Shown here one piece after another: positions 7,899-55,772 of a stretch of 56,172 nucleotides of DNA (its first letter is position 1; every line of letters starts with the position of its first letter). The DNA is taken from the NCBI GenBank assembly GCA_032718475.1, contig JAUCBJ010001310.1, positions 1 to 56,172 on the forward strand, given 5' to 3'. The notes below the pieces were generated by a model, which worked only from the letters and a program-made list of their open reading frames with translations, made no database searches and was not told where the DNA came from. Both the position numbers and the translations under genes were made by a program. This stretch comes from Nemertoderma westbladi (taxonomy: Eukaryota; Animalia; Xenacoelomorpha).

Positions 7899-10800
7899 AT
7901 GAGTTCCGGAAGCGGTAAGTACGTTGTGACGCCGGTACCCATGGACGCGCAGGCTCCGTCATCCACTACGGAACAGTTGCCCCCGTCACCCACTACTTCC
8001 GCCCCCCTAGTGCCCCCACCTGCGACCCCCGCGGTCCGCTTCCGAGCGGATGCAAGCGCCACCGACAACGGAGGTCCCCATGCCGACATCCAAATCCCCG
8101 AGGAAAAAGAGAGACAACTTCCCCTCTATCAGGAAGACAACCCAGATCTACCGGCGATGCTATCGGAATGGGTTAACTACTCCGCGATACTCCCCAATGC
8201 GAAGGAACGCGATGAATGCGAATCTTTAGCGGAAAGTACTCCTGATAGCGCTCTTTCGAAACGGCCCCAACTTGGTACCCTAATGGGCGTTTACTTGCCT
8301 TGCCTTCAGAACATCCTCGGGGTTATCCTCTTCCTACGACTCTCCTGGATTGTCGGCTGTGCCGGTATCCTCGAAGCCTTCACTATTGTCTTTCTGTGCT
8401 GTTTAACGACGCTGTTAACAGCGATCTCAATGAGCGCAGTCGCCACTAACGGAGTGGTCCCGGCGGGCGGCAGCTACTTTATGATTTCTCGCGCTCTGGG
8501 GCCAGAGTTTGGTGGAGCTGTCGGGATCCTGTTCTACCTTGGGACCACCTTCGCTGCGAGTATGTACATCCTCGGAGCCGTCGAGATCTTTATGTTCTAC
8601 CTTGTCCCGGGAGCGGCCATCTTCGAGATTCCCTCCGGCCCCAAAGGTCTGACTTCCCCCCAAATGTACAATAACATGAGGGTTTATGGTACCTGCCTGC
8701 TCGGGGCCATGGCCTTCCTCGTCTTCGTTGGAGTCAAGGTAGTAAATAAATGCGCCTCCCTCTTCCTCGCGTGTGTCATCATCTCCATAGTGGCCATCTA
8801 CATCGGAATCTTCTACCGTGACAATGAACCCACGGTCTGTAAACTCGATGGTGTTCTCCTTGCTGAGAGTGCTGGCTGTCCCAACCCCGGGGAAAACATC
8901 TCCGCGATCCCTGGGCTTGCCAGCGGAGTAATCTCGCAAAACTACATGCCGAAGTACCTCCAGCTCAACCAAATGGAGAACTTGACTTTCTTGAACGAAG
9001 AAAAGAAGAAGCAAGGCTTCTTGGCCTCAGATATGACGACCTCCTTTATGGTTCTGTTCGGTATATTCTTTCCTTCTGTCACCGGGATCATGGCCGGATC
9101 CAATAGGTCCGGGGATCTGCGGGATGCCCAGGCGTCCATCCCTAAAGGCACCATCGCTGCCATAATAACCACTAGCACCATCTACCTCAGCTGCGTGCTC
9201 CTGTTCGGCTCGATAGTGGACGGGGCGGTGCTGCGAGATAAGTTCGGCCAGTCGTTGGGCAATCAGATGATAGTGTCGATAATGGCCTGGCCTACCAAGT
9301 GGTTGATCCTTGTTGGCTCGTTGTTAAGCACGATAGGGGCGGGACTGCAGTCGCTTACTGGGGCGCCCCGTCTGCTGCAGGCCATTGCCAAGGACAACGT
9401 CATCCCGATACTGAGACCCTTCGGGAGCGGGAAGAAGGGATCGGGAGAGCCGACCTGGTCTCTGTTGCTAACCGCCTCCATCACAGAGATCGGTATTCTG
9501 ATCGCCGTTCTTGACGAAGTCACCCCAATTATCACCATGTTCTTTCTCATGTGCTACATGTTCGTGAACATGGCTTGCGCCTTGCAGACACTACTGAAAA
9601 CGCCCAACTGGCGCCCACGATTCCGCTACTACCATTGGGCGCTCTCGTTCATGGGGATGGCTTTGTGCGTCGGGATTATGTTCATCACGTCCTGGTACTA
9701 CGCTCTTACTGTTTTCTTCATCGCCTTCGCTATCTACAAGTACATCGAGTTCCAGGGCGCTGAGAAGGAGTGGGGCGACGGTATCCGTGGATTGGCCTTG
9801 TCCGCCGCTCGGTTCAGTCTGCTCCGACTCGAAGTCAATCCCCCGCACGCCAAGAACTGGCGCCCGCAATTGATGTTACTCGCGAAGCTGGACACCGAGT
9901 TGCAGCCAATATACCCGCAGCTGTTGGACCTGGCCAATCAGTTGAAGGCTGGCAGCGGATTGGTTATCGTAGGTTCGGTGATTAGGGGTAACTTCCTCGA
10001 GGTTTCGGATCAGGCGAAACGCGCAACAGCAAATCTTCGAGCCGATCTTTCGGATCACAAAGTTCGGGGTTTCGTGCACGTAGCGGTAGCGCGGTACGAG
10101 CCGGCCGCGCTAGCCACCATGGTGCAGACATCCGGTCTGGGCGGACTCCGACCCAACACCGTGGTTGTCGGCTGGCCCTACGGCTGGCGACAGAGCCAGG
10201 ACCCCTCCCAGTACGAATCCTTTATGGCCGCCGTGAAGCACATCGCCAAGGCCAACCTGGCCGTCGCCATTCCCAAGAACATCCACATGTGGCCGGCGTC
10301 GGAGAAGCGGTTCGATTCCGGGTTCATCGATGTCTGGTGGATCGTCCAGGACGGCGGGATGCTCATACTCATGGCCTTCCTCTTTCAGCAACACAAAGTC
10401 TGGAAGAAGTGCACAATGAGGATATTCACGGTGGCCCAAGCCGAGGACAACTCCATACAGATGAAGAATGATCTCGAGAAATTTCTTTATCAGTTGCGGA
10501 TCCCCGCGGTGGTTGATGTTATAGAGATGACCGATCAGGACATCCCCGAGTACACTTACCAGCGGACTCTGGCCATGGAGGAACGAACCAACCTCCTTAA
10601 GAAGATTCATTTGTCGCGGCGGCAGTCCAAGTTGGAGGTTCAGGGGATCTCGGACATGCATCGCGAGTCCTATCGTCGCTTCAGTCTCATCGGAGACAAG
10701 GTTGCCGAGGCGGTGTCAGAAGATCAGCTGTCCCGGAAACCCCTCGAGTACAACGTCCGGAAGATGGACACCGCGGTTAAACTCAACAAGTTGATCCGCG

Positions 10801-10967
10801 ATCGATCGAGCGACTCGCATCTCGTGATTACCAACCTGCCGCCGCCGCCGAAGGACGCGGATTGCGACTCGGATTATATGGAGTTCCTGGAGGCCCTCAC
10901 CGAGGGTATCGACAGGATCATATTGGTTCGTGGCAGCGGGAAGGAGGTCGTCACTATATACTCGTAG
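7899..10967 (+). CDS. kcc: Potassium-chloride cotransporter (KCC, SLC12A4/5/6/7 family), 1022 aa, single coding exon
   Basis: Diagnostic motifs LGTLMGVYLPCLQNILGVILFLRL, GGSYFMISRALGPEFGGAVG, FFPSVTGIMAGSNRSGDL, GLQSLTGAPRLLQAIAKD, WRPRFRYYHW, EKEWGDGIRGL, KNWRPQL, IDVWWIVQDGG and the canonical C-terminus VRGSGKEVVTIYS; uninterrupted GC-rich ORF. Confidence 0.97.
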   Translation: MSSGSGKYVVTPVPMDAQAPSSTTEQLPPSPTTSAPLVPPPATPAVRFRADASATDNGGPHADIQIPEEKERQLPLYQEDNPDLPAMLSEWVNYSAILPNAKERDECESLAESTPDSALSKRPQLGTLMGVYLPCLQNILGVILFLRLSWIVGCAGILEAFTIVFLCCLTTLLTAISMSAVATNGVVPAGGSYFMISRALGPEFGGAVGILFYLGTTFAASMYILGAVEIFMFYLVPGAAIFEIPSGPKGLTSPQMYNNMRVYGTCLLGAMAFLVFVGVKVVNKCASLFLACVIISIVAIYIGIFYRDNEPTVCKLDGVLLAESAGCPNPGENISAIPGLASGVISQNYMPKYLQLNQMENLTFLNEEKKKQGFLASDMTTSFMVLFGIFFPSVTGIMAGSNRSGDLRDAQASIPKGTIAAIITTSTIYLSCVLLFGSIVDGAVLRDKFGQSLGNQMIVSIMAWPTKWLILVGSLLSTIGAGLQSLTGAPRLLQAIAKDNVIPILRPFGSGKKGSGEPTWSLLLTASITEIGILIAVLDEVTPIITMFFLMCYMFVNMACALQTLLKTPNWRPRFRYYHWALSFMGMALCVGIMFITSWYYALTVFFIAFAIYKYIEFQGAEKEWGDGIRGLALSAARFSLLRLEVNPPHAKNWRPQLMLLAKLDTELQPIYPQLLDLANQLKAGSGLVIVGSVIRGNFLEVSDQAKRATANLRADLSDHKVRGFVHVAVARYEPAALATMVQTSGLGGLRPNTVVVGWPYGWRQSQDPSQYESFMAAVKHIAKANLAVAIPKNIHMWPASEKRFDSGFIDVWWIVQDGGMLILMAFLFQQHKVWKKCTMRIFTVAQAEDNSIQMKNDLEKFLYQLRIPAVVDVIEMTDQDIPEYTYQRTLAMEERTNLLKKIHLSRRQSKLEVQGISDMHRESYRRFSLIGDKVAEAVSEDQLSRKPLEYNVRKMDTAVKLNKLIRDRSSDSHLVITNLPPPPKDADCDSDYMEFLEALTEGIDRIILVRGSGKEVVTIYS

Positions 10968-14766: not shown

Positions 14767-14797
<31 letters not shown>

Positions 14798-18102: not shown

Positions 18103-21100
18103 CTACTGTACTACTACTAGGTCGAGCGAACTCGGACAGTGGAAATGAGATCCTTCCAGGCTTCCCGATTCTCCATAGTTGTCGCAATTTCGTTTCTCCC
18201 AAGTTCAGTATCCCTTTCAAGTTGATCTATATATGTTATGGCAGGTCGTCCACGACTACGCTTTCCATGAGTTGGTTGCCAGAGAAGTAGATCTGGTATT
18301 TACTTCGCCAGCAGTGCCCACTGAATCTTAATCTGCGTTCACGGAGGGTGGTTGATACAGGTGGTATTGTACCATAAAGCTCGGCGTTTATCATGTGTTG
18401 TCTCCAGCTGATGTTTAGGGCTGCCCTTAGTAGTCTTGTGTAGCAACCATAAATTCGTTGTTTAAGTGATTTAGTCAGTGTCCAGGTCTCACCCCCGTAT
18501 AAAAATACACTTTCCACTGTGGCTCGAAAGAACTTAGTCTTCAGGTGCCTGGAAAGATCTGATTTCCAGATGGTATCCATTTTGGATAGAGCTACCCAAG
18601 CCTTTGCTTTCCTAACTTCTATGTCCTTTTTGCTACTCTCTATCCATGATCCAAGGTACTGGAAGTCATCGACCTTCCTTAGTTGATTATTATCAATGGT
18701 TGTCAAGTTTCCATCTGCATTAAAGGTCATGAATTCGGTCTTGGTAGCATTTATATGCAATCCAACCTCCTTAGCATCCCTCTCCACTTTATTTAGTAGA
18801 AGCTGTGCATCTGCTAGCGTATTAGAGAGCAGGGCGATGTCATCCGCAAAGTCGGTGTCTGTGACTGTAGTTGCCGGATATCTACTACTTCTGCGTTCTT
18901 GAAGTGTGAATCCCAGATCTTCACCCTTTGTGGCCGTCCTCCTTGCGTAATCCAGCACAATTACAAATAGTAATGGTGCTAATGTGTCACCTTGCAGTAC
19001 GCCAGCCAGGATTGAGAAAAACTCAGTTCACCATCTGGTGAGAGTACCTGCGCTTCTGTGTCACAATATAACAATCCAATGCCGGCAACAATTACTTCTG
19101 GTATTCCATAAGCTCTTAGGATTTCAAGCATTTTACCTCTATGGATGGAGTCGAATGCCTTCTTGAAGTCCACAAAAGTCATGACTGCGGGGAGATTCTT
19201 TGACTTAATTCCTTCAATCAGTCTCCGTAGTGCAAGTATCTGAGCTATTGTTGATCTACTTGGTCGAAATCCGTTTTGGCTCTTACGCAGTAGTTTCTCT
19301 ATGTGAGGCCTAATCCTATATAGAATCATTTTATTGTATATTTTGGCAACTACCACAAGCAGACAGATCCCACGATAGTTTGTTGGTATGACGAGGTCTC
19401 CTTTCTTGGGGAGAGGCTTTAGTTGACCTTTAGTCCAAATTGGTGGTGGCTTTTCCCCTTTTAACATCCGGTTGCAAACATTCAATAATGGTCTATTTAG
19501 CACTCCGGTTTTCCATACCTCCGCTGGGATTTCATCTAATCCACTCGCTTTATTATTGGACATGCTTTTAATGCTTCTTTGGAGTTCGGCAGGTGTGAAG
19601 TCCCCTGTTTCTATAGGTAGTGTCTTGTCATATATTTTCCTTGTAGGGCTGACCTCGATGTTTGGTGACTGCCCAAGCAAGTTGCTGAAGTGATTTTTCC
19701 ACTTCCCAGCACGTTCTTCAGGACTATCGGCTTTGAGGCGCCCCTTTGCACAACTTTTCCGACCAGATACCACCTCATTTACAGTTTGCCAGGTAAGTCT
19801 TGATTGTTGTTGTATGTGAGCAGTTGTAATTGCTTCAGTTTTATCCTGTATGTACTTTTCCTGGCTGATGTTGTAGGCCAATTTAAGATCGTCCTTAGCT
19901 TTCTCAACCTTGTTAATGTTTTCGGTTGTTGGTTGTTCGGTTTTAACTTTGTAGGCTATCTTAAGATCTTCTCTCTTACAAGTAACCTCAGAGTTTTGCC
20001 ATGGCACATACTGTTTTCGTTTTGGTTTCTGGAGGATATGCCTCTTAGCTGATTCCTTGTGGGCTGTTATTATATTCTGGTATATTGGATCGGTGGATTG
20101 GTCTTCATCCATTGACTGAAGTGCTTCAAAGCGGTTTTGAACTTCTACTGTATAAGAATCCTTTACAGCATTGTCAGTTCTGAGTTTCTCCCAGTCATAG
20201 TTGATTTGCTTGCTTGTCCTGGGTTTGCTGGCTCTCAAACTGAGTCTGATCTCTGCAGTCACAATTAACCAATTAGGTTGAACGAGCTGTATGCCTCGCA
20301 GTTGATCATGCTATTTCTCCACTTTTTGTTTATAAGGATGTAATCCAGTTGTGCTTTGGTTCCATTAGGGTATTGAAAGGTCCATAGCTTCCCCTTACTC
20401 TTTTCGAATGTGTTGTTTGTTGGTATCAATTCACATTCTTCCATTAGGTCTAAAAGTAAGTACCCATTTCTGTTAGAACTGGTGTTATATGTGAAACCCT
20501 TGATGTCTTCTGGGCCAATTTGCGCATTCAGGTCACCAGCAATGACTTTAACATTGTGTTTCGGGATGTCCTTAATAAGTCCAGTCAGTTCTTCATAAAA
20601 CTTGACTGCTTGTTCTGGCTCTGATGCATTGGTTGGACTGTAGCAACATATAACTGTCGTCTTGGGATTCCCATCAAATGTTGCGATCATAACCCTGGAA
20701 TTTATAGATTCGATGTTGTTTAGGGTCTTAAGTGCAAATGGGCTTAGCAGAATTCCTACTCCACCAATTGATGCATTGGCCGAGTTTCTTACTGCTGAGC
20801 TTGTTACTAATGTCCATCCATTTCCAATGTCATTGTACTTCATGGCAGTGTCTTCATGACAAATCCGATGTTCTTGGATGCAGATGATGTCGATGTTATA
20901 TTCCATTGCCAGAGCGACCATGTCACCCTGTTTGCTCTGTGCTTTCAGCGTGCGTGCGTTCATTGTAGCAATTTTTAGTGTCTTTTTACATTTCAACAGG
21001 TTGGTTCTTCTTTCTTCTCTGTCTTCTGTTCCAGTAGCCAATTTATCGACCCCAGCCTGGTGTACCACTGAGGGACGCGGTCCTTGTTGACCCGGGCGAC

Positions 21101-21636
21101 GACCGAGCCGGTATTTCTCCTGGAGGGTTCTCATACTCATATCTTTCAGTTGCGGGAGTAAACCGCTTGTGGTCGCAACTCCTACAAGCGTCTTCGCAGT
21201 AGGTCGCCGTTGGTTGATTACCTTCCGCCGACCTTGTCAGCATGTCTAGCCGTTGGTTGATTACCTTCCGCCTATCCATGGCCTACATCCCTGCTGCCGA
21301 CTGTAGGGGTCCATTTGTTACACCCTGAACCAAGTGTGCCTCCTGGGTTAGGTTACCTAACACTGGTAGAGGAGCATCCAGTATAGACAGGGCGGGGCTT
21401 GTATCATCTCTAATGCAGATGTGTATCAAGCCTTTGCCTTGAATGGTGCCCTAGGTGCTATAGCCCTCAATGACATATTTAGTTGACGGGGCTGAACCAA
21501 CCCACTCTTGATCAACTAAATAATGAATAGGCTATGCTTATCGGGGCTGCCCTACTGGGCTGACAGCTACAGGTAGTACCACATTACTGCCATAGTGGTA
21601 GCAGGATCTGGGGACCTGACCTGACCAAAAAAAAAA
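18103..21636 (-). mobile_element. Full-length RTE-clade non-LTR retrotransposon, inactivated
   Basis: 12-bp TSD AATTTATGGATA at 18091-18102 and 21637-21648; 3' (TAG)n tail; APE and RT coding fragments; ~490-bp 5' leader starting GGTCAGGTCAGGTCCC. Confidence 0.93.
18236..21140 (-). pseudogene. RTE APE-endonuclease/reverse transcriptase ORF broken into three pieces
   Basis: IATMNARTL, ICIQEHR, GGVG, AGDLNA, QLDYIL (APE); NYRGI, QNGFR, FVDFKKAFDSI, DFADD, YLGS (RT). A small deletion near 20263 removes the SDH motif and there is a 1-bp frameshift near 19028. Confidence 0.92.
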
Positions 21637-24603: not shown

Positions 24604-24675
24604 TGCGTCGCCCGGGATTCGAACCCGGGTCTATTGCTTGGGAAGCAACAATGCTAACCACTACACCAGCGACGC
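24604..24675 (-). tRNA. tRNA-Gly (anticodon CCC)
   Basis: Minus strand GCGTCGCTGGTGTAGTGGTTAGCATTGTTGCTTCCCAAGCAATAGACCCGGGTTCGAATCCCGGGCGACGCA folds as a cloverleaf with a perfect 7-bp acceptor stem, intact A and B boxes and a TTCCCAA anticodon loop; a T7 Pol III terminator lies ~13 nt downstream. Confidence 0.95.
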
Positions 24676-26560: not shown

Positions 26561-26773
<213 letters not shown>

Positions 26774-27542: not shown

Positions 27543-27780
27543 AGTAGAGACCACCCACTGAGGCATTGATACAGCACAGGCTAATACGTAATAAGGGAGT
27601 TAGTTGGATGCGGCTTTGTTTAAAGGAGAAGTATGTATAATAATCGGATTTTGTGTGTTATTATTAGATAATCACTTCTCACCTTTTCCTTTGTGTAACT
27701 TCAGTTTAGAGTCATTATGAAATGACAACGTTCTATGAAGGCGTCCTAATTATAGTTCTATATTATATTATATTATATTT

Positions 27781-35400: not shown

Positions 35401-35878
35401 TTACACTAAATTCCGGTTAAACATACAAAAAGAAAGTAGGTTAATTTCTTTGAGTCTTAGAGAAAATAACAGTTTATTACGGCAATTTACAACTTCAGCT
35501 GGAAGCGAGTTCCAAATGGGCACCACTCTATGGGAAAAATTATTTTTGCACATCTGCAAGCGCGACTGTTTATGAAACAGTTTACGGTCGTGACCTCTCA
35601 ACCCACCCCTAGGGGCCAAGGTAAAGAAGTCCGCGAAGTTTAGGTCGACTTCGTTGTTCGAAAGAGCGAAGGTCATCTTGAGGTCAAAAATTATGCGGCG
35701 CACTTCCAGGGGTTGAAGCTGTAATACGTTAATTCGATTCAAATAGCTTACTGTACAATCCAAATTACAACGTTTAAAAAGGCGACGCGTAAAATATCTC
35801 TGTACCCGCTCAAGTAAGTCTATACAACCTAAATGAAAAGGAGACCATATAGGCGTACAGTACTCTAATAAGGGACGC
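35401..35878 (-). pseudogene. C-terminal part of CR1 ORF2, separated by the Sola2 insertion
   Basis: RPLLEYCTPIWSP, LERVQRYFTR, LEVRR, RGHDRKL, FSHRVVPIWNSLP; joins in frame to ...AFKSYV once the insert and one ACAT are removed. Confidence 0.92.
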
Positions 35879-35882
35879 ACAT

Positions 35883-38800: not shown

Positions 38801-40509
38801 TCAGTTCATGTTCAGTCTCAATGTTACGTTTATTTAATTCAGTTAAGCAGCGATGGCATAGTTTCCATCCAGGAATTACAGAGAACCCCATACTTTGAAA
38901 TTGGATTGCATTTGCTATTGAAATAACACGATCACCTTTAGGTGCGTGGTTTTCCTTCTGAAAAACGTTGCAACATTTCTTAAATTGTCTTTCATAAATG
39001 GGACCTAAATATATATACTCATGATGTAAGCAAATATTAAAATCGCAGTCTAGCTGTATATCTTTAAACCCGGTTTGCCACTTTAGAAGTTGCAGGTTAT
39101 GATCTGACAACTCTGTCACGTTTTTAAGAGCTTTTGACATGTTATATGTTGTCTTGTGACAGGCACCTTCATCATTAAGTAATGTTGCGAGATTGCAACA
39201 ATTTAATACAGACATTACTCACAGAACTCAATCAACAGTGAATTAAAAGAAATAACAATTAATTAAAACAAAATACAGTTAAAATTCACAAAAAAAATAG
39301 TTCTAATTTACTGGTAGTCCTAATAAGGACTGTTTTGGCTAGTTGATAGTCTATGATAAAGGAAATAAAAAATAGGATAAAACAAACTTGCTAAAATTTG
39401 CGCACTTTATTATTATATAAAAAGATAAGAAAACAATTCAATACACAAAAGGAGATTTGACAGCTTTGATTAAGCTCAAAAAGGCAAGTGGAATGAGCTT
39501 ATGCACTAGCTTTTATAACCAGCAGAAACAACTCTGGCCAATGAGATGTCTCCAAAGTAAGATCAGCCAATAAGGTGCAAGGAATTCCAAGGCTGCTCTT
39601 TCAAGCTACTCGGGCCAACGTTTAAGCAGTGACTGCCTTGTTTACAAGTACATTTTATCTAAAAAACCTAAAAGTGGTATAACTTTTGAAGGGGTGATCA
39701 GTTTTCAAAAATCTTTTCGGATTCGAATTTGTCATTTTCTTGTGATCAAAAAAAGTTACGACATGATATTATTTTAATCACATTAAATTATTAAAACTAA
39801 TCAATAGTAGAGCAGTACTTACCTAGAAGTGATGTAAACATGCAAAAGTGTTATGAAGTAGGCTTGGCCTATCTGCCAAATGTAGTGTCACTTCAGCTTT
39901 TTTAGCTTAGAGCACAAGGTTTCGTGACATGTCGTGAACTTTCGAGAACTTTCGTGACATGTCGCGAACTTTCGCGACATGTCGCGAATATTCAAATTTT
40001 CAAATTGATGTAGCACAAGTTTGGAAAACGGGGCGGAAATGAATCCTTCTGCTATCTACTACACATTTATGGTACTTTTGAACTAACTTGGTCCTAAATA
40101 AAATAAAGTTGACCAACATCATGAATTTTTTGACTGAAAATTCCCTATCGCAAAAGAAATTTATCTTCCTGAAAACCAAACAAGGCATTGGCCTTTTCTT
40201 TTTTTAACCCGAAATTCGGGATCTACATGATCGAAAACCCCAATAAACATTTTGTTGGGTAGTTTTTCACAAATATTATCTAAAATTTCAAAAAAAATAC
40301 TACGTCGAGGTGCCGCAAATCGGTGCGCATGCCGCATAGAGAGACAATTTTCAAATTGCAATAACTCATGAACCACTGAACCAAATGAGCCCAAATTTTG
40401 CATAGTATTCTCTATATATTGGTTTCATATGCATGCAAAATATGAGTCTGAACGGGAGACCTTGGTGTCATTTTGACAATTTTCTGGTTGATTATAAATG
40501 GAATGACTC
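35883..40509 (-). mobile_element. Autonomous Sola2-type DNA transposon (4627 bp)
   Basis: 4-bp TSD ACAT; perfect 26-bp TIR GAGTCATTCCATTTATAATCAACCAG with GRG terminus; additional ~540-bp imperfect inverted repeats (~35979-36522 / ~39801-40403); central transposase. Confidence 0.9.
36594..39215 (-). CDS. Sola2-type DDD transposase, 873 aa, intact
   Basis: GDFSENY..QDEIQSYHW, YSDGCGGQYKN, FFATSHGKSACDGIGG; CVCTYHQN and N-terminal Cys/His clusters; C-terminal Tudor-like YDDLWWVG segment. Confidence 0.88.
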   Translation of the reverse strand: MSVLNCCNLATLLNDEGACHKTTYNMSKALKNVTELSDHNLQLLKWQTGFKDIQLDCDFNICLHHEYIYLGPIYERQFKKCCNVFQKENHAPKGDRVISIANAIQFQSMGFSVIPGWKLCHRCLTELNKRNIETEHELIENVELSDTDSVSAHSTDSEIGAIQRSEAKEIARKNLDTMLVDSGLTPIKLHGKRILPYSKDKFERTVKSLRHSFGDALDIPSTSFSQGAVSYSVSDTEVKNLQRDSNDLNTLMGEIKLKINQPGTKSSEIIKMLTLVPSSWSQTHTVDFFNVSAHQAKQARKLHVESGILSVPQYKLRNVISQNSKDTVIEFYQDDRFSRILPGVKDVVSIRRGEQYEQKRLILNTLKELFVEFKNQNPHTKVGFSSFCSLRPKWCVLPGASGTHFVCVCTYHQNAKLLASKTNLTYKEMIAKTVCDTNNKECMLQRCQVCPGIEQLVSHLRTEFSDNLDDQIIFQQWQTTDRSTLISQATTINEYIDIVSQSIKKLTPHSFLAKSQSQYLRKLKSEIKPSYVIAIGDFSENYTFVIQDEIQSYHWSQMYCTLHPFVLYFYKEGADNHLGSTSLCYLSEDSDHDTSFVYKMQEHLCSYIREEFPLVSHIHYYSDGCGGQYKNCKNFLNLTLHKHDFKIAASWNFFATSHGKSACDGIGGTVKRLAASESLRRPLSNQILTVADLFKFCTDSITGIKFYTISKEELKTTREKLKERYELATTIPGTLSFHQFVPLEDQHLAIAYKRCSEDESFTNSYNFSKKYSYNMNYQANDYVAGKYDDLWWVGLVKNVNDVELEASVTFMHPSGPSKSFFWPRRIDECLIPLNDMICRIDVPSATSISGRSYSLSKQDETNVIERFQKMLRK

Positions 40510-42860
40510 ACATAAGATTTAAAAGCCGTAATTAATGCAGAACGATTCGAAGTTAAAAAGCACTTGAAAATCAAATTTGTCATTTTTAGGGCCTTGGCAG
40601 CTTGTTCGCGACAATAAACATCGAAATTAAGAGAACTACACATTGTAATACCCAGGTCTCTACAGGAAGTGTCAATCTTTAAACATTTACCACCTAACAT
40701 GTACTGCGTATCATTTCGGTCTGCCGAACCGATGTAAAGCACGGTGCACTTATGAGCAGCAATTTTGAGTTGCCATGTATCAGCCCACTTTTCCAAAGCA
40801 GATAAAGCTTCAGCGAGTTGCAAATTATCGGACGAGCGCGCATACAGCTTTACATCGTCGGCGAACAATTTGCATGATACACTATTACCGATTATATCAG
40901 GTAGGTCATTAATAAACAACACAAACAATATTGGGCCAAGTACGCCACCTTGAGGGGTACCGGATAGTACATAGCAGACATCGGAAAAACTATTTCCAAC
41001 AACAACACGTTGGCTACGATCAGATAAAAAAGCCGATAACCACAATAGTAAATCTCCAGATATACCATATGCCGATAATTTAGATAATAACTTCCTATGT
41101 ACAACAGAATCAAATGCTTTCGCAAAATCAATATAAATTGTGTCCGTGCTCTGTCGACTATGTAATAAATTGCACCAATCAGTTGTACATTCCAATAATT
41201 GAGTACAGGTAGACCGTTTCTTTAAGAACCCATGTTGCGATTTAGATATGAGTTTATGAGAATATAAATAATCGAGCAATTTGTCCTTTATACACATCTC
41301 CATAATTTTGCATGCAATACAGGTCAAAGAAACAGGTCTGTAATTGTACGGGTCGGCAGCATCCCCCTTCTTATAGATTGGAACAATGGATGCTGTTAAC
41401 CAAATAGAAGGTAGACAATGGCTACTAAACGATATTTGGAAAATGGCCGCTAGAGGAGCTGCCAAGCACCGTGATAATCTAGAGAAGATAATACTGGGGA
41501 AACCATCAGGCGTACGACTCGATTTACCTTCAAGTTTACGTAATATACAGGATACGTTTACCGGACTAAAATCAACATGAGACATAGAAATATGATTGGG
41601 AACACGCCGCTCAAAATTTGGTGTAGCACTGTTATCAACGGAAAAGTTTTCTGAGAATACCTTTGATAGAATACGGGCTTTCTCAATATCATCTACCACG
41701 GTTGCACCTTTAAATTTAAACGGTGAAACACCAGAATTAAGGTTACGTTTCGAATTAATATATGAAAAAATATCACCGATATTGCCCGAACTAAGAATCT
41801 TGTTTTCCCGAATACAGGCTGCCCTGAAGCAAGCCTGGGATACAGCTTTGGCGCATTTCTTATATTCAGAACTACCAGTTACGGTATGACGTCGCCGCCA
41901 TAAGCGTTTTTTCTTGCGTTGTAATAAGCGAACAAAATCAGGGAAAACCTTCTTCTTGCGCGGTGTCACAAAACTCTTAAAAGTAACAAATCGTTCTATA
42001 CCTGTACGTAGTGTAGCACTAAAAAAATCCCAAAAATCATCAACGGAAATACAAGAATCAAAATTAGTGTTCCAATCAATACTTTCCATAAATATGGAGA
42101 ATTCACTGTAGTTACCATTCTTAAAATCATAATAACCTACGTTATCATCAGATGACGGGCTACGATCAGCAGATAAAATATTAAAAATTACAGATGCATG
42201 GTCACTAGTACTAAAATTATCAATAACATCTACATTAGAAACAAACATATCCTCACTTGAAAAAACTAGATCTAGAATGTTATTATCGCGGGTGGGTTTT
42301 AATTGTAACTGAGTTAAACCACTGTCCAGAAAACACTGGTTTAGTAAGTCGTAGTTAGCATATGTAGGATGTGTTAAGTTAAGCCAATCGAAATCTGGTA
42401 AATTAAAATCACCATTAACGACACATGGGGTATTTACTTGACAGAGAAGAGATATGCATTCGGACAAGAGTTTATCAGTTTCAATGGTCGCGATGGTTCC
42501 TGATCGATATATACATATAAACCGACAGGGGGAGCTTCCAACTAGATCGATCGCTACCACCTCAGTATCTACAAAGCGAGCCGGTAGTTGTACCTGGACG
42601 CATTTGATGTCCAACCGGACAAGGACGGCAACTCCACCACCACGAGAGGGTCTATCTTTGCGGAAGACACGGTATTGCCCATTGTTGCTCACCATCTTGT
42701 CTGGGATTGTATATGTGAGCCAGGACTCGGTGACAGCCAGGATCCCATATTTATTAGGTTGTAAGAAGAGCTCGAGGTCAGTTAGTTTATTGTTCAGCGA
42801 CCGCGCATTCACTAAGCAGCATTCGATGAATGGCTCCTTGACGGGTTGTTTCCCTCCGTT
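40510..42860 (-). pseudogene. CR1 ORF2 (APE + RT), N-terminal ~770 aa, interrupted by Sola2
   Basis: NARSL, VTESWL, RGGGV, GDFNLP, LDLVF, SDH, NYRPVSLT, QHGF, DFAKAFDSV, PQGGVLGP, FADD, RDLGI. Confidence 0.93.
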
Positions 42861-44038
42861 TAAACGTTTCCCGACGAAGAAGACGTCGGATCGGCAGTTG
42901 CGCCATTTGTATTCTGTGGCGTCGTCCGAGGATCCGGCGTACGGTGCTCCGGCCTCCCGGGCTCCGTCGTCCGCGGCGAGGGGGACACGGGAGACGGGTT
43001 TCTCGTTGATCGGTGTTGTCGTTGGTTACGAACAGCTTCCCGTTTATGGTACTGCTGCTCGGCCTGTAGTCGGGTAAGATCATGGTCAATATAAACCCCA
43101 GTATGCGCAGTGGATTTCCGGAGTTTTTTCTTTTGTTCCATGATATTATTCTTGGAATCCATGCTAGAGAGGCGGACAATGAAACGCGTAGGTTTATTAT
43201 CCCTCGCCGGTAGACTGGAAACCACTGAAAATACCACATCTTTCTGATCGAACTCTGACTCCAACAGAGAAGAGATTTCTCCTTTGTTAGAATCGTCGGT
43301 TGATACCGGTAAACCTCGAATGACGATGTTGAGCTCACGTTTCCGCTGCTCTTGAACCTCGCGATCCACATCCTCCGCGGTCATTGGGACCGCAGTAGAC
43401 GCGGGCCGGGTTTTGTTCTTCTTCTGTTGCACCTGGGACCAGGCCTCTCCACCCGAGTCCTTGGATTCCTCTCGAAGAAGATCGATCTCGGATTTCAGGG
43501 AACTGAAATCATTAGTGATTTTTTCTTCCAGTTTGGATATAACCGTTATTAGCGATTCCGAACTGGAACTGGTCGTATTTGCTGGTTGCTTAAATGCGCC
43601 ACGTGACTCGCAAGTGTTGCACACGATCTTGCAGTTTTTGGACTTCCCGAGAATCGGTATGTCCGAAGCGACGAGCCCGAGACACTTGCTGTGAATCCAG
43701 GATCCACAGCAGTCGCATCCCAGACAGTTTCTGCCCACCACCGCCTTCAGGCAGTGGGGACACAAATTCTCCACGAATTCGTCCCCGTCGCACGATGGAG
43801 TAGACACGTCGCACATGGCGACGTGGTTATTGTAGGCGGCTTTATCGGTGAAAAGGGCAGAACATCCGTCGCAGTTTAGCAGCTTGGAGAGATCTATTTT
43901 TCCTATTGGACTATTACCGCCGAGACTTGTCCTTGATGCTGGAGTGTTCGTCCCACGCGGTGCCGCTCCAGCTGGGCTTTGTCTCGTCGCTGGTTGCTTC
44001 TGCTTCGGAGGCATCTCGAAGCAGCGAAGGTATACCAA
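42860..44038 (-). CDS. CR1 ORF1 protein (C2HC finger, PHD finger, coiled coil, RRM-like domain)
   Basis: CPHC..CDCCGSWIHSKC..CNTC (PHD); KRELNIVIRGL and VYIDHDLT typical of CR1/L2 ORF1. Confidence 0.88.
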   Translation of the reverse strand: MVYLRCFEMPPKQKQPATRQSPAGAAPRGTNTPASRTSLGGNSPIGKIDLSKLLNCDGCSALFTDKAAYNNHVAMCDVSTPSCDGDEFVENLCPHCLKAVVGRNCLGCDCCGSWIHSKCLGLVASDIPILGKSKNCKIVCNTCESRGAFKQPANTTSSSSESLITVISKLEEKITNDFSSLKSEIDLLREESKDSGGEAWSQVQQKKNKTRPASTAVPMTAEDVDREVQEQRKRELNIVIRGLPVSTDDSNKGEISSLLESEFDQKDVVFSVVSSLPARDNKPTRFIVRLSSMDSKNNIMEQKKKLRKSTAHTGVYIDHDLTRLQAEQQYHKREAVRNQRQHRSTRNPSPVSPSPRTTEPGRPEHRTPDPRTTPQNTNGATADPTSSSSGNV

Positions 44039-45591
44039 AGCAGTCGTATAGCAGTATATATAAACAATATATATTAAATAATTAAGTAGGCCTAAGGGCT
44101 GTGCTGCTGTGAGTTACAATACATACCAACGTCCAGACGTCTGCACTGCTCCACTCCTGCCACTGCACGCCAGCCAGGCTGCAAACCACCACTGAACCGC
44201 GCACAACGCCTGCGCACAATTTTTCAGCCGCGCAGTAGGCCTATTGTGTATTGGACAATATACCGCGCATGCACCGAAAAAAAGGGCACACAACATTTTA
44301 ACAATGTAAACTAGAAACATACGCCAGCGAAGCGAGCCAAAGAAACGAGAGCAAAACTCAAAGCAGCAAAGTGAGCGAAATTTGTTCATTCTACATGTAA
44401 CAGTGCAAAATGAAAAAGAAACGCGAGCAAAACTCAAAGTGTTCGAAATTTTTTCATTCTAACAGTGCAAAATGAAAAAGAAATGCGACTACTGGACTAC
44501 CAGTCTGCTTTATATTATTTATAGCGTTAATTGTAAAATTTTATGAAAAACCATAAAAAACCAATTTTTTCGCCTTTTTTTAAAAGTTGGTTAAACCAAA
44601 AAACCATAAAAAACCAATGGTGAGAAAAACCATTGGTTGCCAACCCTGTACATAGCCTACATAATGTGCAGTAGCATACAGTCTATCCTTCAGTATATGG
44701 GCTACTTTAAGACTATGACCTAAATTTTGAGTCTCAGTTATAGGAGTTTTATCTACCCACTGCATAGTATTGCATTATATTGTATTATACGAACTGTCTG
44801 CCTGTAGCCTATTTGCTATTTCTACTTGTACTGTTGTAAGCCAGTCAAAATCTACATGTATCAAAGTTCTGTCAATCATTTCATATTGACCACAGAACCA
44901 AGGCCGCTAGTGGCTAGTCTGCTAGGGGCTAGTGATTGACACTGTAGCGGCGCATATTTCGGTCCTGTTGCATTTACTTACAATTAATTATATTTATATA
45001 CATACAAGCAGACAAGTGTAGTGTAGTGTACTGGTGTAGCTGTAGACTACACTGGTATACACGTTTTGCATGCGTTTCTCACTCGTTTGTACTCTTTTGT
45101 ACTATTTTTGCACTCTTTTGTACTATTTTTGCACTTTATTGTACTAATTTGTACTTTTTTGTACAGATTCGTCAGACCGATAATCTTCAAATAAATAATG
45201 TTCCAGACTGCCAGAATATTGTGTATTTCAGTATTTATCAAATAGGCCTATTATAAATGGCCTGACCTGCAGGCTGTATCGGATGCAAAGTTCTGCACTT
45301 TTTGAAGGCCCATATCTCCGCTATTTATCAATGGCATTCAGACATCAATAGTTATTTACAAATTTGGAATCCTTGCAACGACAAATTTGCATTGGTATCA
45401 ACAGCAGATCAACAAATCACAATAAGGATCAGGAATAATTGCGGTGCGAGGTGTGACTGGTGCAATGTCTGAATGTCAGAATGTCCAGATCAAAAATCTT
45501 AGTTTTATTTTAATCAGATTTTTGGTGTCTTAACTGTTAAATTTGTCTGATAACTAGCTGACTAGTAGGTAGGGCCTAAGCGGTAGTAGTA

Positions 45592-47335
45592 GGGTGTTTG
45601 AAAAAGGTGGACTGGACACAGAAAACATGAACAACGGACTGACCAATCAGAAACGTATTAAGCAAAGCTGTTTGTAGCGATTAGTTTGTCCACCTTTTTC
45701 AAGTTTTCGCTTTCTTAATTACATAATTGGGAATAAGATGTGTGTTTGAAAAAAGTGGACTGGACATAGATAATATAGATAATAGTCTGACCAATCAGAA
45801 ACGTATTAACAGATTAAAGCAATGCTATTTCGTAGTGATTGGACATGGACTGCCCACCTTTTTTCAGGTTTCAATTATCATTTATAATCGGCATGCTGGA
45901 AGCAGCTGCATTAAGAACAGAAGAATGCTGCCGGTGTCCTAGGCGCCGGCCATTCGGTCGTGGCCATTCTTCACATTAGTCGTAATTTTTTCATATCATT
46001 AGAAAGCTTGCCTTGCAAGGATTCGAAATATGTAACAATATCTGAATTTCGTTGAGAAACAACTGAGATATAGGCGTTCAAAGATTACAAGAAGTATCGT
46101 TCGGGTTCGCTGAAGGACATTTATTCTTTTCAATAAATGCACGATGTTCTGGAACATTTTGTTTAAGTATGAATAGCTATGCAATAAATATAATGGATAG
46201 GAATACCGCTGTTGCCAACCAACTTATAAAATAAATAACACATTCTAGAATTTTGTGTATTTATTAAATAGAATAAATGGCCTGTAGGGAACGATAATTC
46301 TTGCAATCTTTGAACGCCTATATCCCAGCTGTTCCTCAACGAAATTCAGATATTGTTACATATTTCGAATCCTTGCAAGGCAAGCTTTCTAATGATATGA
46401 AAACATTACGACTAATGTGAAGAATGTCCACGATACGGAGAGTGCGATTTCGCAAAAGACATTTACTTAAAAAGCTTATAAAAACAATTAAAGGCAAAAT
46501 CGAAAATTCCGGCTTCGTGGGGTCGTCGACGGTGAGTGGAACTAGTGGTGTTTCAAATTTCAAGCAATATAAAGATTTGTAGAAAAATCTGGGGGGGGGG
46601 GTGTCATCAGAAAATGACACAATATTACGGGACATGGTAATTTTAACACTAAAACTACATAGGCCTACAGTTGTAGGGGGCCTATTGTAAAATAAATAAT
46701 ACTTTATTGACCTTTTCGCTCCTCGATCTGACTTATTTACCACCCTCGCAGCGCTCGGTCGTTTAATAACAGATTTCGGGACGAACGGTAAATAAAGCAT
46801 ATTATATTTCCCTCACAGCTCACATTACAATATATAGTTATTATAATTAACTGTATACTGTAATGAGTTAGAATATTGACGTTCCAATATTGATGCTAAG
46901 GCTGTAAGGCTCAGCTCACAGACTTCGTGGCTCGCCCCATATTATTGAACTAGGCCTATTTCGACAACTTCAGAACTTCGGTTGGTCACAGTAAGTACAG
47001 TAAGTATGATTCGTCTACTTCGACAATTTCGGTTGGTCACGCAGTGCAGTAAGTATGGGATAATAATAACAATTATAATCCATAAAAACCTTCTGAAAAC
47101 TTTTGAAAAACGTGGACAGAGCTGCTATACCTATAATGTGCAAAGCAATCTGATTGGTCAATTCATTGCCTGTTCTTTCTCAACCCAGTCCACCTTATTG
47201 AAATTTGAAAAAAGTGGACAACAAAGCTGAAAAAGGTGGACATGCTGTGTGACGCCAATCGATTGATTGATTGACAATGATTGGTCTGTCCATTGTCCAT
47301 GTTTTCTGTGTCCAGTCCACCTTTTTCAAACACCC
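45592..47335. mobile_element. MULE-like non-autonomous element with CCAAT-containing repeated modules and nested inserts
   Basis: GGGTGTTTGAAAAAGGTGGACTGGACACAGAAAACATG versus CATGTTTTCTGTGTCCAGTCCACCTTTTTCAAACACCC; flanks GCGGTAGTA(GTA) / GCGGTAGTA give a 9-bp TSD with a 3-bp slip. Confidence 0.82.
45958..46433. mobile_element. Foldback element with ~145-bp inverted arms, nested in the previous element
   Basis: CATTCTTCACATTAGTCGTAAT...CCTTGCAAGGATTCGAAATATGTAACAATATCTGAATTTCGTTGAG is mirrored at ~46289-46433. Confidence 0.8.
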
Positions 47336-47463: not shown

Positions 47464-48795
47464 ATGGGGTCGACGAGTTTAAATAATGTATTAAAATTGA
47501 ACCGTGTGAATCAGAAATTTATTACCCGTCGTTTAACCGGATTTCGCAGTCTGATAACTGGGAGCAAAGTAGCGACCGATTCGCCAAGACCACTGAACCA
47601 TGTCCTCGCGAGAGGCGCAGCGAACTCGCAAATTAACAACCAGTTTACGAGCGAAGACGACGAATACAAATACTCTTACCGGGAGATCAGCAAAAAAATA
47701 TCTGCCTTCTTTTACCACCCAGCGATCGATGCTGCGGCCGCTCGCCAGATCGTACGTCTCTCGCCCTCCTCGTTGATGTACCAGGGACCGCAATCAGCAA
47801 GCGAACCTTCAATACATATCTTACGCAGTGCGCAGTTCCTCCAGAAAGAGTTGCCAGTTCGAATCTCTCGTCGAATTATCGGGTTCCGTCAACTTCCTTT
47901 CATCGTTGGCTGCAACCCAACCATCCTTCACGTACATGAGATGTACATTCGTGCTTTCCACATGGTCAAAAACTTTCCACAGATTAAAGACAGGCAAATC
48001 GAGGGCGAATTCTCTTTGATGCTTCGAAACTTACTAGAGGATCACCGCAACGTTATCCATCAGCTCGCCTCCGGGTTCAAGGAGTGCCGTAGACACTTAC
48101 GAAACGAGAATATAGTCCAGGAATTCCTCGACGAAACTCTAACCTCGAGGTTGAAGATCCGATTAATGTGCGAGCATCATATCGCCTTCCACGACGAACG
48201 CCCAAACCATGTCGGCATCATCAACAAACGCGTCCCGCTCGCCAAGGTCATCACGAACGCAAGCGAGTACTCTGCGCGTATCTGCGAGATGCGATACGGT
48301 GTGGCTCCCGACGTTAACATACACGGCCACACACAAGCGTGCTTCCCGTACATTGTGTCTCCTCTGGACTATATACTAGCGGAACTGTTAAAGAATGCGA
48401 TGCGAGCTACCGTGGATCATTCGAAGTCTATGAAATCACCGGTGCATCCAATCGATATCACTATCAGCAGTAACGATGTCGATTTCATAATTAAGATTAG
48501 TGATAGAGGAGGTGGAATCCCTCACAGCAATGTAGATAAAGTTTATGAATATCATTACACAACGGCAGAGGAAGAAGCGGAAGCAGACATGGACCACAAC
48601 CCCATGGGACATATGATATCTCAGGTTAATAACGCAATCCCGATGCACGGGTACGGTTTCGGTCTACCCACCTGCCTCGCCTACGCGCGGTACCTGATGG
48701 GAGACCTGACGATGGAGTCGATGCAGGGTATCGGTACCGATATGTACCTACGGTTGAGACACATCGACGGAAAAATGGAGAGTTTCAAAATATAA
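47464..48795 (+). CDS. BCKDK: Branched-chain alpha-ketoacid dehydrogenase kinase, mitochondrial, 443 aa, single coding exon
   Basis: ELPVRI, LPFIVGCNPTILHVHEMYIRAF (BCKDK-type rather than PDK), ELLKNAMRAT (N box), ISDRGGGI (G1), PMHGYGFGLP (G2), C-terminus ESFKI; basic, acid-poor N-terminal presequence. Confidence 0.96.
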   Translation: MGSTSLNNVLKLNRVNQKFITRRLTGFRSLITGSKVATDSPRPLNHVLARGAANSQINNQFTSEDDEYKYSYREISKKISAFFYHPAIDAAAARQIVRLSPSSLMYQGPQSASEPSIHILRSAQFLQKELPVRISRRIIGFRQLPFIVGCNPTILHVHEMYIRAFHMVKNFPQIKDRQIEGEFSLMLRNLLEDHRNVIHQLASGFKECRRHLRNENIVQEFLDETLTSRLKIRLMCEHHIAFHDERPNHVGIINKRVPLAKVITNASEYSARICEMRYGVAPDVNIHGHTQACFPYIVSPLDYILAELLKNAMRATVDHSKSMKSPVHPIDITISSNDVDFIIKISDRGGGIPHSNVDKVYEYHYTTAEEEAEADMDHNPMGHMISQVNNAIPMHGYGFGLPTCLAYARYLMGDLTMESMQGIGTDMYLRLRHIDGKMESFKI

Positions 48796-48981: not shown

Positions 48982-49470
48982 AGGGCCATCCTTAAATTAC
49001 GTAACGCAAGGGTGGGGGCAGGGTGTCCGTCCAACTTATCGTGACGGTTTGTGACATAGGGCAGGGGGGAGGTTGGGTTTGAAAAAAAACGTGACATAAC
49101 GAAATTGTCTAGTGGATTACCCTATATAACTACTTTCAGTTTGGTGCCCAGCCAGGCAACCCCTAGTATGACTCTACCACATCATTGTAGATTACATCCA
49201 ACGGTAGGTACACTAGGTCTATGTCAATCGCCTAAACTGAGCTCGCTCTCCTGCCGTATGCTGACCAATAAGTAAAGGACCAGAACAAAATATTTCATGC
49301 AAATATTAAGATAAATATATGGTTACTATGATTAGTATACAGTTATTTAATTTGGAACTTATTTCTTGGCGTGACGTGGGGGGTGGGGTGGGGGGGTGTC
49401 CGAGCTTAACAGAGGGTGGAGGGGGTCAAAAATGGTCTAAAAAAGCGTTACGAAATTTAAGGAAGACCCC
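48982..49470. mobile_element. PIF/Harbinger-like MITE
   Basis: AGGGCCATCCTTAAATTACGTAACGC versus GCGTTACGAAATTTAAGGAAGACCCC; TAA/TAG flanks; G-runs and GTGAC motifs. Confidence 0.8.
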
Positions 49471-49867: not shown

Positions 49868-49970
49868 TAATTATTTATTGCATGGAAAAGACGTAGGACT
49901 ATTCTCACTATGCTCTCAAATCTTTATTGACCACACCAGTCATACTTTTTTCCCATGCAATGAATAATTA
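49868..49970. repeat. Short inverted repeat / mini-MITE
   Basis: TAATTATTTATTGCATGG versus CCATGCAATGAATAATTA; the left arm recurs at ~50447. Confidence 0.5.
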
Positions 49971-51325
49971 TTACATCACGACTTTACCTTATTTATAAGA
50001 TTACAGTGAAATGATTTAAAGCCAGCGAGTATATATGCTAAATCTTATAATTACGACTTGCAGTAATTATGTAACTTTATTCGGAATTGGAAATATTCAT
50101 TAAAAAGGCTCTAATTATTAAATACTATATCTAAATGTTAAACATTAAATTATTACCGATGTCATGTAGGGCAGGCCTACCGATAAACCGGTACAGTTTT
50201 CAGATAGTCCGTGAAATGAAAGTAAATGGTTGGCAACCTGTACACTGGTAATGGGCCCAACTTCTATGCTGTGTACTATCGACGCTACTGCTTTCTTAGC
50301 TGCCGTAAAACAATTTTTACTAGCCGAAAAGGGAAAAGTTGTATAACCTCTTCTACCTGGAGTGTCCCAGCTGACCTGGTAGTATTTTTTCCTATTTGTG
50401 ATCTGCATTTCCTCTAAATAGTAATATTTTCATCGGCCTTGTAAAGTAATTATTTATTGCATTTACCGAGCGCCACAAGGTTAATAAAGAATCGAGAGCA
50501 TAATGAAAATATGTTTCACGTTATTTATTTTTTATCTTTTTTAAAAATAATTATAGAATATATAATTATTATCACACCTTTTTAGTAATTTCCTAACAAC
50601 AGCCCACATTTTAAAAACACCCTCGATATTTATCTTATACAGTATTATAGTATAAAAATATATTTACAATGGCTGGGATGCCAAAAAAATATCCACTTAA
50701 TATATAGTACATGGTTAACCATTAACTATTTACCATATTATATTACCGTAGTAGTTTTTTTGCTAATTTTTGTAATCAATATTTACCTCTTAAACCGGCA
50801 CTGCTTTAACCTGAATGTTTTGAAATCCTTCCTTTATTTCTAACCAATTATTCCGCGTTTGGCATATAAAATAGTCCTTTGGGTATTAAGTTAAGCTTGC
50901 GTTTGTAATCTACTATTTTTTCTATGAATACTCGATTTTGTGTGCACTTGGCAGTATATTATATACCGAATACGATATAAACTGCAGTGATTAATTACTT
51001 CTGAGTGTAATTAATATTCATAAGATAGCTATTTCTTAATATATACTGTACTACACACCCCATCCTCATTCATTACTTAAGTCTAAATTATTTGTCAGCC
51101 ATTAATCATTTCACAGTTAGTTTGTAAGCTGTGGAAAATAATAAATACCTTGCTTCTGGTGCTTAAAGGCCAGTTTCCGCGCTGCTTTTTTCCGAGCTAT
51201 TTTAAGGCCAGTTTACGCTTTAATAGATACTAGCCATATAAAATGGTTATTTATGCGGGGCGAGTCAGAACTGCGATCCATCAGCGGACTGTTATAATTA
51301 TACTATGGCCGTTTATCCAAAAGTT

Positions 51326-52072: not shown

Positions 52073-52106
52073 ATGTGTGTATTGGAAGCACGACTGGCAT
52101 CGAATC

Positions 52107-55244: not shown

Positions 55245-55772
55245 TCAATCAGGTCGCGTCATATATAATCGGGGAATCTCCTCTATTCGAATAACATACT
55301 CCTGCATAGCTGATGTACTGGAACAACGCTGTCTAGAAAGTCGCCAACACAACCCCAGTTTAGTGTACAACCTACTGTTCTCCCATTCCAAAGCCTTCTC
55401 CACTGCGTGGCGGCATCGTTTACTGAGACATACGACAGGCCACATTGAACAGCCCAGTGTACAACAGCAGCAGAGAAAGCCGCAGATCAGCCAACGCATG
55501 TTTAATGGGAACGTGTCGAGTAATATGTCGTTGATACGATCGATGCTCAGTTTGAATTCCTCCGGGGCAACTTTGGCGGCCAATCGGGAAGGGAATTCGT
55601 TATTAAACTGGTTATTTAGACCGAATATCGTCGCGTTTCCATTTCCCCGTATTATGATCGGGTCGGGGACTGGTTCAGGCACTACCGGGGGGTCGTTTTC
55701 TACTGTCTCCACGTAAATCGCATCAGCGTCAATGTCGCTGTCAACCGGATTTGGGTATGCCGCTTCCGCCAT
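55245..55772 (-). CDS. CHIC2: Cysteine-rich hydrophobic domain protein (CHIC1/CHIC2, Erf4/GOLGA7-like family), 175 aa, single coding exon
   Basis: PDPIIIRGNG..IFGL, KVAPEEFK, WLICGFLCCCCTLGCSMWPVVCLSKR, LEWEN.RLY.KLGL.W and C-terminal RPD; probably a pro-orthologue of CHIC1/2. Confidence 0.93.
   Translation of the reverse strand: MAEAAYPNPVDSDIDADAIYVETVENDPPVVPEPVPDPIIIRGNGNATIFGLNNQFNNEFPSRLAAKVAPEEFKLSIDRINDILLDTFPLNMRWLICGFLCCCCTLGCSMWPVVCLSKRCRHAVEKALEWENSRLYTKLGLCWRLSRQRCSSTSAMQEYVIRIEEIPRLYMTRPD

What the first reader, a model, noticed from the sequence alone, without database searches (positions are those of the whole stretch)
7899..55772. Three of three conserved host genes are intronless in a transposon-bloated genome: candidate genome-wide intron purge
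Seen: KCC (3069 bp), BCKDK (1332 bp) and CHIC (528 bp) are each one uninterrupted full-length ORF, with no poly(A) scar or TSD noticed and no disabling lesions, separated by tens of kb of TEs. Known: vertebrate KCCs have roughly two dozen exons, BCKDK about a dozen and CHIC several, and wholesale intron loss in animals is normally tied to compact genomes. Inference: this lineage may have lost most coding introns without compaction, plausibly by cDNA-mediated gene conversion using the RT of its LINEs (three families in this window). The alternative is three independent functional retrogenes side by side.
Basis: partly seen in the sequence, partly recalled or inferred. Interest (0 to 1): 0.85.

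Follow-up and report, generated by a model that had tools for sequence, protein, structure and literature searches.

The report
Intron-free housekeeping genes amid transposons
Three housekeeping genes that are split into several or many exons in other animals lie here as unbroken reading frames among jumping-gene debris, one of them matching a polyadenylated transcript end to end, likely because mRNA copies replaced the original genes, which hints at frequent but incomplete intron loss in a repeat-rich animal, likely a marine worm.

Summary
Observation confirmed. KCC, BCKDK and CHIC are full-length single ORFs in a window that is at least 42% repeats. BCKDK matches one gap-free, poly(A)-ended contig from a run that behaves as RNA, and no second copy of 80% or more identity covers its coding region in 4 of 4 runs laid. 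The strong claim, loss of most coding introns, is not shown. Unchecked scan notes describe 16 multi-exon genes in the same assembly, most with giant satellite-filled introns. No genome was available to count introns. The taxon is a long-branch bilaterian; a scan note names Nemertoderma (not tested by me). Published N. westbladi figures (3.3 and 1.5 exons per gene, 60% repeats; Xenoturbella 8.5) fit partial intron poverty, which the authors did not read as loss. Best reading: a mosaic genome in which many genes lost all introns at once, likely by retrocopies replacing their parents. Three in a row needs a rate of about 5% or more, far above the human background. The scan found single retrogene replacements before in other genomes (octopus, shark); 0 of 79 notes on this genome mention intronless genes.

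The parts
7899..10967 (+). KCC (SLC12A4-7 type K-Cl cotransporter), intronless CDS, 1022 aa
   Evidence: best hits hemichordates at 59-60%
47464..48795 (+). BCKDK, intronless CDS, 443 aa
47316..50117 (+). BCKDK transcript-like contig: 148-nt 5' UTR, CDS, 1322-nt 3' UTR, 0 gaps against the DNA, ending in a non-genomic A tail
   Evidence: (run X4, record 31; loose end C+A23)
50099..50104 (+). ATTAAA, likely poly(A) signal 13 nt before the cleavage site; no genomic A tract at the site
55245..55772 (-). CHIC (cysteine-rich hydrophobic domain protein), intronless CDS, 175 aa; only 400 bp of upstream DNA in the window
18236..21236 (-). LINE with endonuclease and RT in separate, shifted frames (RTE-like; clade name recalled)
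27756..30689 (+). second LINE: 977-codon open frame with RT domain; no endonuclease hit, likely 5'-truncated
35401..44113 (-). third LINE (CR1-like; clade name recalled): ORF1 with weak PHD hit, ORF2 with EN+RT, split near its 3' end by a DNA transposon
35883..40509 (-). 4627-bp DNA transposon with long inverted ends (GAG...CTC), 4-bp ACAT target duplication and an 873-aa ORF
45592..47335 (.). high-copy element with 58-nt inverted ends (95%) and a nested palindromic MITE (45958-46433); its right end overlaps the first 20 nt of the BCKDK transcript contig
48983..49469 (.). MITE-like insertion (25-nt inverted ends) inside the BCKDK 3' UTR; a second, high-copy one at 49868-49970

Best explanation
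KCC, BCKDK and CHIC are intact genes without coding introns, and each likely lost all its introns in one step when a LINE reverse transcriptase copied its spliced mRNA into a new site and the intron-bearing parent was later lost. This likely happened to a sizeable share of genes in this lineage (about 5% at least, plausibly tens of percent) but not to all: the genome appears to be a mosaic of fully intronless genes and multi-exon genes with very long introns. Shown: intronless full-length ORFs; for BCKDK a colinear poly(A)-ended transcript contig and no second copy at 80% identity or more; RT-bearing LINEs nearby. Inferred: the cDNA route, the relocation, parent loss for KCC and CHIC, and the genome-wide rate.
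For: Full-length colinear ORFs that include the N-terminal motif. Orthologues are multi-exon: most shrimp SLC12 genes have 20 exons, only A8 and A9 being named as fewer (PMC12428425); amphioxus CHIC primers are named for exons 1 and 6 (PMC5803294); BCKDK about a dozen exons is recalled. BCKDK depth is flat from one contig over the CDS in 4 of 4 runs, and the RNA-like run ends in poly(A) where the DNA has none. MITEs inside the 3' UTR show an old, settled locus, so missing A-tail and TSD are expected. Outgroups place KCC and BCKDK on different contigs in 2 of 2 hemichordates with chromosome-scale contigs, and BCKDK and CHIC on different contigs in 2 of 2 such bivalves. One such window in a 240-680 Mb genome needs a per-gene rate of about 0.04-0.06; at 0.002-0.02 only 0.0-0.1 windows are expected. 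Human has 25 orphan retrogenes (PMC3548309 abstract). N. westbladi: 3.28 (long-read) and 1.53 (short-read) exons per gene, about 60% repeats, 11.5% LINEs; 23,120 vs 22,578 gene models although short-read contigs average 2.4 kb. Xenoturbella averages 8.5 exons.
Against: n = 3 genes in a window chosen for being striking. No genome was available, so no intron count, no parent search and no synteny test. A parent below 80% nucleotide identity would be invisible, and that tool filters some records out. Fragmented assemblies inflate single-exon counts (PMC5534336 passage), and the N. westbladi authors call exon numbers comparable to acoels. BCKDK and CHIC share one 7.5-Mb scaffold in a millipede, 310 accession numbers apart, so old linkage is not excluded. 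Scrambling of acoel genomes could explain new neighbours without retroposition (Hox genes scattered in acoels, untested in nemertodermatids). The taxon rests on an unchecked note; my tree left the gene unplaced. 0 of 79 scan notes on this genome mention intronless genes.
Confidence: 0.45

Rival explanations
1. Widespread but partial intron loss in place: cDNA recombined with each gene at its own locus (RT-mediated intron loss), once with a full-length cDNA or in several rounds.
For: Same intronless, parent-free, scar-free picture. Native promoters are kept, which explains function easily. This is the mechanism favoured for Aculops (PMC7738191). BCKDK and CHIC share a scaffold in a millipede.
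Against: In Aculops retained introns are biased to 5' ends and some genes keep part of their introns; here none of 3 keeps any coding intron, including roughly 20 in KCC. Outgroup contigs mostly differ. The BCKDK transcript contig starts at the end of a mobile element, not in unique DNA, although contigs cannot fix a start site.
Confidence: 0.22
2. Local cluster of old functional retrogenes in an otherwise ordinary genome; diverged intron-bearing parents may still exist elsewhere.
For: Sixteen scan notes describe multi-exon genes in this assembly. Published exon numbers were judged comparable among acoelomorphs. A permissive insertion region would break the independence assumed.
Against: No second BCKDK at 80% or more in three DNA runs or the RNA-like run. 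Three independent survivors within 48 kb are improbable at known background rates. The likely taxon has the lowest exon counts of the xenacoelomorphs compared.
Confidence: 0.15
3. Near-complete purge: over 80% of conserved genes intronless, as in Aculops, with the intron-rich genes being a small remnant or belonging to another organism in the assembly.
For: 3 of 3 here; with a flat prior the 5% lower bound on the rate is 0.47 before allowing for selection of the window. 'Almost all' genes are single-exon in the short-read N. westbladi assembly, which still holds 76.8% of BUSCO genes at N50 4 kb. That assembly's long-read counterpart had many contaminant contigs. The notes on intron-bearing genes are selected for oddities.
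Against: Long-read mean of 3.28 exons per gene against about 1.3 implied for Aculops (3057 introns in 10,263 genes). The BUSCO figure appears to include fragmented genes, since present and missing sum to 100%.
Confidence: 0.12
4. Introns were removed one by one by precise genomic deletion, without reverse transcription, or the window is an assembly artefact built from cDNA.
For: Genomic deletion cannot be excluded over long branches. KCC has two internal deletions.
Against: About 35 separate precise losses would be needed in three neighbours (count partly recalled). DNA contigs of two samples run unbroken through the BCKDK CDS, and DNA cover continues past the poly(A) site without an A tail. 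DNA runs hold 0.97-1.00 of the KCC words. Both samples may be sources of the window.
Confidence: 0.06

Closest known systems
Retrogene replacement / orphan retrogenes (human, PMC3548309, abstract and outline seen; amphioxus and Ciona SYCP1, PMC5803294, 12 passages seen; review PMC5470649, 5 passages; Kim et al. 2014 on Ciona only as cited there)
   Same: Single-exon functional gene where orthologues are multi-exon, no visible parent, conserved protein.
   Different: Known cases are scattered single genes (25 in human) or occur in compact tunicate genomes; here three lie in a row in repeat-rich DNA. Relocation and parent loss are not proven here.
Massive intron loss in the mite Aculops lycopersici (PMC7738191, 12 passages seen)
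   Same: Conserved multi-intron genes reduced to single ORFs; RT-mediated loss or retroposition with parent loss proposed.
   Different: Aculops is 32.5 Mb with few transposons and 538-bp median intergenic spacers; here spacers are 6-36 kb and at least 42% repeats. 84% intronless is not shown here.
Nemertoderma westbladi genome description (PMC10565955; outline, sections 7, 12, 18, passages for 'exon' and 'intron', and a two-term search of 5 supplementary tables seen; figures not seen)
   Same: Repeat-rich acoelomorph with low exon counts (3.28 and 1.53 per gene), fewer or longer exons in several tested genes, and gene models with 349 and over 1200 'exons'.
   Different: The authors conclude that exon number is relatively conserved and do not discuss intron loss in the parts read. 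That this window is from that species is a lead from a scan note, not my test.
Rule that intron and intergenic DNA scale together across animals (PMC5534336, abstract and 3 passages seen)
   Same: Provides the expectation: a repeat-rich genome should have large intronic mass.
   Different: This window has 0 intronic bases detected and about 9% host coding DNA; genome-wide the giant satellite introns may restore the ratio.

Membership tests
Orphan retrogene (retrogene replacement) | Intronless CDS where orthologues are multi-exon | tested here: met
   outgroup exon numbers; BCKDK number recalled
Orphan retrogene (retrogene replacement) | Functional: intact, conserved, expressed | tested here: met
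Orphan retrogene (retrogene replacement) | Intron-bearing parent absent from the genome | tested here: inconclusive
   BCKDK only: no other contig at 80% or more over the CDS in 4 of 4 runs; older parents, KCC and CHIC untested; no genome
Orphan retrogene (retrogene replacement) | Lies at a locus other than the ancestral one | tested here: inconclusive
   different contigs in 2 hemichordates and 2 bivalves, same scaffold in 1 millipede; no xenacoelomorph synteny available
Recent processed retrocopy | Genomic poly(A) tract and target-site duplication | tested here: not met
   the real BCKDK poly(A) site has no genomic A tract
In-place RT-mediated intron loss | 5'-biased retention of remaining introns | tested here: inconclusive
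   no coding intron remains in 3 of 3 genes, and none in the 148 nt of BCKDK 5' UTR seen; the sample is too small
In-place RT-mediated intron loss | Precise loss at ancestral intron positions, gene still at its ancestral locus | not testable with these tools
   no outgroup gene structures or own genome available
Aculops-type massive intron loss | More than 80% of genes intronless | not testable with these tools
   no genome; comparator means of 3.28 and 1.53 exons
Aculops-type massive intron loss | Compact genome with few transposons | tested here: not met
   at least 41.6% of the window is repeat-derived; spacers of 36.5 and 6.4 kb

The most novel reading that the evidence does not exclude
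A repeat-rich bilaterian with a two-state gene architecture: a large share of housekeeping genes have been wiped of all introns by LINE-made cDNA copies, while the rest carry introns swollen to tens of kb by tandem copies of their own splice junctions. Runaway intron swelling would itself favour the intronless replacements, so intron loss here would be driven by genome expansion rather than by compaction.
Probability: 0.22. Interest if true: 0.82.

Novelty: new variant of a known kind. Interest (0 to 1): 0.58.

Why it matters
Wholesale intron loss in animals is best documented in tiny, streamlined genomes, so mechanism (reverse transcription) and selection (small size, fast cycles) are confounded. 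A transposon-rich animal with many fully intronless housekeeping genes next to giant-intron genes would separate the two. It would make retroposition-with-parent-loss versus in-place conversion directly testable with an assembly that may already be public. It would also revise the published view that acoelomorph exon numbers are simply conserved.

Tried and rejected
No RNA holder was listed by record; run X4, listed as 'DNA?', is read by me as RNA because of its non-genomic A tail, its cover stopping exactly there (102.1 predicted and observed in the last bin) and its low repeat depth. KCC and CHIC have no read-level evidence. Taxon placement by tree failed: BCKDK has an end branch of 1.58 (median 0.28), no supported group, in a quick unfinished search of 89 rows (71 of 120 hits, 17 of 150, plus the window protein). 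The three window proteins are not in the protein collection. Three short KCC peptides were not found in the 8 text supplements of PMC6687202 (nothing else of that paper read). Vertebrate origin rejected: best identities are 55-67% to any animal. Rfam found only a tRNA, no snRNA or leader RNA. Paper searches for a prior report of intron loss in this group: 'Nemertodermatida'+'intron' (21 papers, 19 listed), 'acoel'+'intron loss'+'genome' (12), 'massive intron loss'+'metazoan'+'reverse transcriptase' (9), a five-term search (1) and a four-of-five-term search (0); no title or abstract start reported it. Most subscription papers and bioRxiv supplements are outside the library. PMC13520880, PMC13125763, PMC9911081 and PMC11521371 were seen as passages only; the first two said nothing on nemertodermatid intron loss in the passages shown. 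Supplementary figures of PMC10565955 (BUSCO breakdown) and its Figure 1D were not visible and bear directly on the genome-wide claim.
Full report
Observation. The three ORFs are as described: KCC 7899-10967 (+), BCKDK 47464-48795 (+), CHIC 55245-55772 (-), with the expected Pfam domains. Alignments with five orthologues each run from the first to the last residue without an intron-sized insertion; tblastn agrees. KCC keeps its N-terminal 'VVTP' motif in the same frame, so even the 5'-most coding introns are absent. Orthologues are multi-exon: most shrimp SLC12 genes have 20 exons (PMC12428425) and amphioxus CHIC has primers named for exons 1 and 6 (PMC5803294); the BCKDK exon number is recalled. 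No poly(A) scar or target duplication was found. Of 382 other open frames of 45 aa or more, 146 were scanned against Pfam and none looked like a host exon. At least 41.6% of the window is repeat-derived; the spacers are 36.5 and 6.4 kb. Three RT-bearing LINE-type elements are present, each frameshifted, truncated or interrupted.

Reads. Five runs hold the KCC stretch or part of it, four of them with 0.82-1.00 of its words. Over BCKDK, three DNA runs from two samples show one contig and flat depth across the whole CDS, with repeats at 100-1000 times that depth on the flank. Both samples may be sources of the window. The fourth run gives one contig from 47316 to 50117 with 0 gaps and 1 difference, depth 1044, ending in C+A23 where the DNA has no A tract, 13 nt after ATTAAA; cover stops there. 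I read it as a polyadenylated transcript. So the intronless BCKDK is the expressed copy, its UTRs as seen are unspliced too, and no other copy of 80% or more identity appears in DNA or RNA. Two MITE-like insertions in its 3' UTR show that the locus is old. A parent more diverged than 80%, or filtered out by the tool, would be missed.

Taxon. All three proteins are 55-67% identical to their best hits: hemichordates lead for KCC and among named BCKDK hits, and mixed bilaterians for CHIC. A quick BCKDK tree leaves the gene on a long unsupported branch among bilaterians. An unchecked scan note says another gene of this assembly matches a Nemertoderma transcript, and another guesses an acoel. I use the published N. 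westbladi genome as a comparator only. It has 59.7% repeats, 11.5% LINEs, 3.28 exons per gene in the long-read and 1.53 in the short-read assembly ('almost all' single-exon). Gene counts are similar in both (22,578 vs 23,120) although short-read contigs average 2.4 kb, and one model has over 1200 exons (PMC10565955). Xenoturbella averages 8.5 exons, median 4; the two acoels 6.4 and 4.2. The authors call exon number relatively conserved and do not discuss intron loss in the sections read. Fragmentation alone inflates single-exon counts, so these figures are suggestive, not decisive.

Is it genome-wide? This could not be counted. Against a near-complete purge: 16 scan notes on other pieces of this assembly describe multi-exon conserved genes (an ion transporter, GALNS, MEMO1, a RhoGEF with seven exon edges, mitoguardin, NF-kB, aconitase, a nuclear receptor, PRP8, DYRK4, beta-catenin, RGM, KIDINS220, BRSK and two glutamate receptors), most with introns swollen by splice-junction satellites. 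They are unchecked, chosen for oddity, and might include another organism. 0 of 79 notes on this genome match 'intronless'. Against an ordinary background: if genes lose introns independently, one three-of-three window in a 240-680 Mb genome needs a per-gene rate near 0.05; at 0.002-0.02 only 0.0-0.1 such windows are expected (genome size assumed, every window treated as holding three genes). Human has 25 orphan retrogenes. The rate is therefore likely raised well above background, or this region is a landing site for retrocopies.

Mechanism. Loss of about 20, a dozen and five introns with none left is most simply one cDNA event per gene (inference). Retroposition with parent loss is slightly favoured over in-place conversion. 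In Aculops retained introns are 5'-biased and some genes are only partly stripped, whereas here nothing remains. KCC and BCKDK lie on different contigs in two hemichordates, and BCKDK and CHIC in two bivalves. The BCKDK transcript contig begins at the inverted end of a mobile element. Against: BCKDK and CHIC share a scaffold in a millipede, though 310 accession numbers apart; general scrambling could give new neighbours; and contig starts are not transcription starts.

Comparison and novelty. Retrogene replacement and massive intron loss in a 32.5-Mb mite are known, and the scan noted single replacements in octopus and shark genomes. My searches found no report of frequent whole-gene intron loss in a repeat-rich acoelomorph, within a library that lacks most subscription papers. 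I rate it a new variant of a known kind, interest 0.58. The boldest reading still open is a two-state genome in which satellite-swollen introns favour intronless replacements (probability about 0.2).

Noticed in passing
window 35883-40509: 4627-bp DNA transposon with GAG...CTC ends, about 600-bp inverted arms (82%), ACAT target duplication and an intact 873-aa ORF without Pfam hit, inserted in the ORF2 of a LINE; resembles Sola2 elements (label recalled).
   Followed up: partly
window 7899-10967: KCC lacks about 30-50 aa of the large extracellular loop, including the middle two of four conserved cysteines, and about 30-100 aa of the variable C-terminal insert, relative to 5 orthologues. Could reflect exon skipping in the copied mRNA or ordinary shortening.
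   Followed up: no
window 7899-10967, 47464-48795, 55245-55772: CpG observed/expected is 1.0, 1.36 and 1.16 in the three CDS (0.89 window-wide) and GC3 is 0.53-0.71 against flanks of about 35% GC: no sign of the CpG depletion that gene-body methylation usually leaves in invertebrate housekeeping genes (expectation recalled).
   Followed up: no
window 47278-47335: The inverted end of a high-copy element carries CCAAT-like boxes and overlaps the start of the BCKDK transcript contig (47316); possible transposon-supplied promoter.
   Followed up: partly
window 24604-24675 (-): tRNA-Gly(CCC) gene.
   Followed up: yes
window 51326-52072: 32-bp minisatellite, about 23 copies, between BCKDK and CHIC; its 172-aa ORF has no Pfam hit.
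   Followed up: partly
run X4: Listed as 'DNA?' but behaves as a poly(A) RNA library.
   Followed up: yes
protein P0322: A full-length 175-aa CHIC called from an unnamed 10.7-kb contig, so intronless CHIC may also occur in another organism.
   Followed up: no
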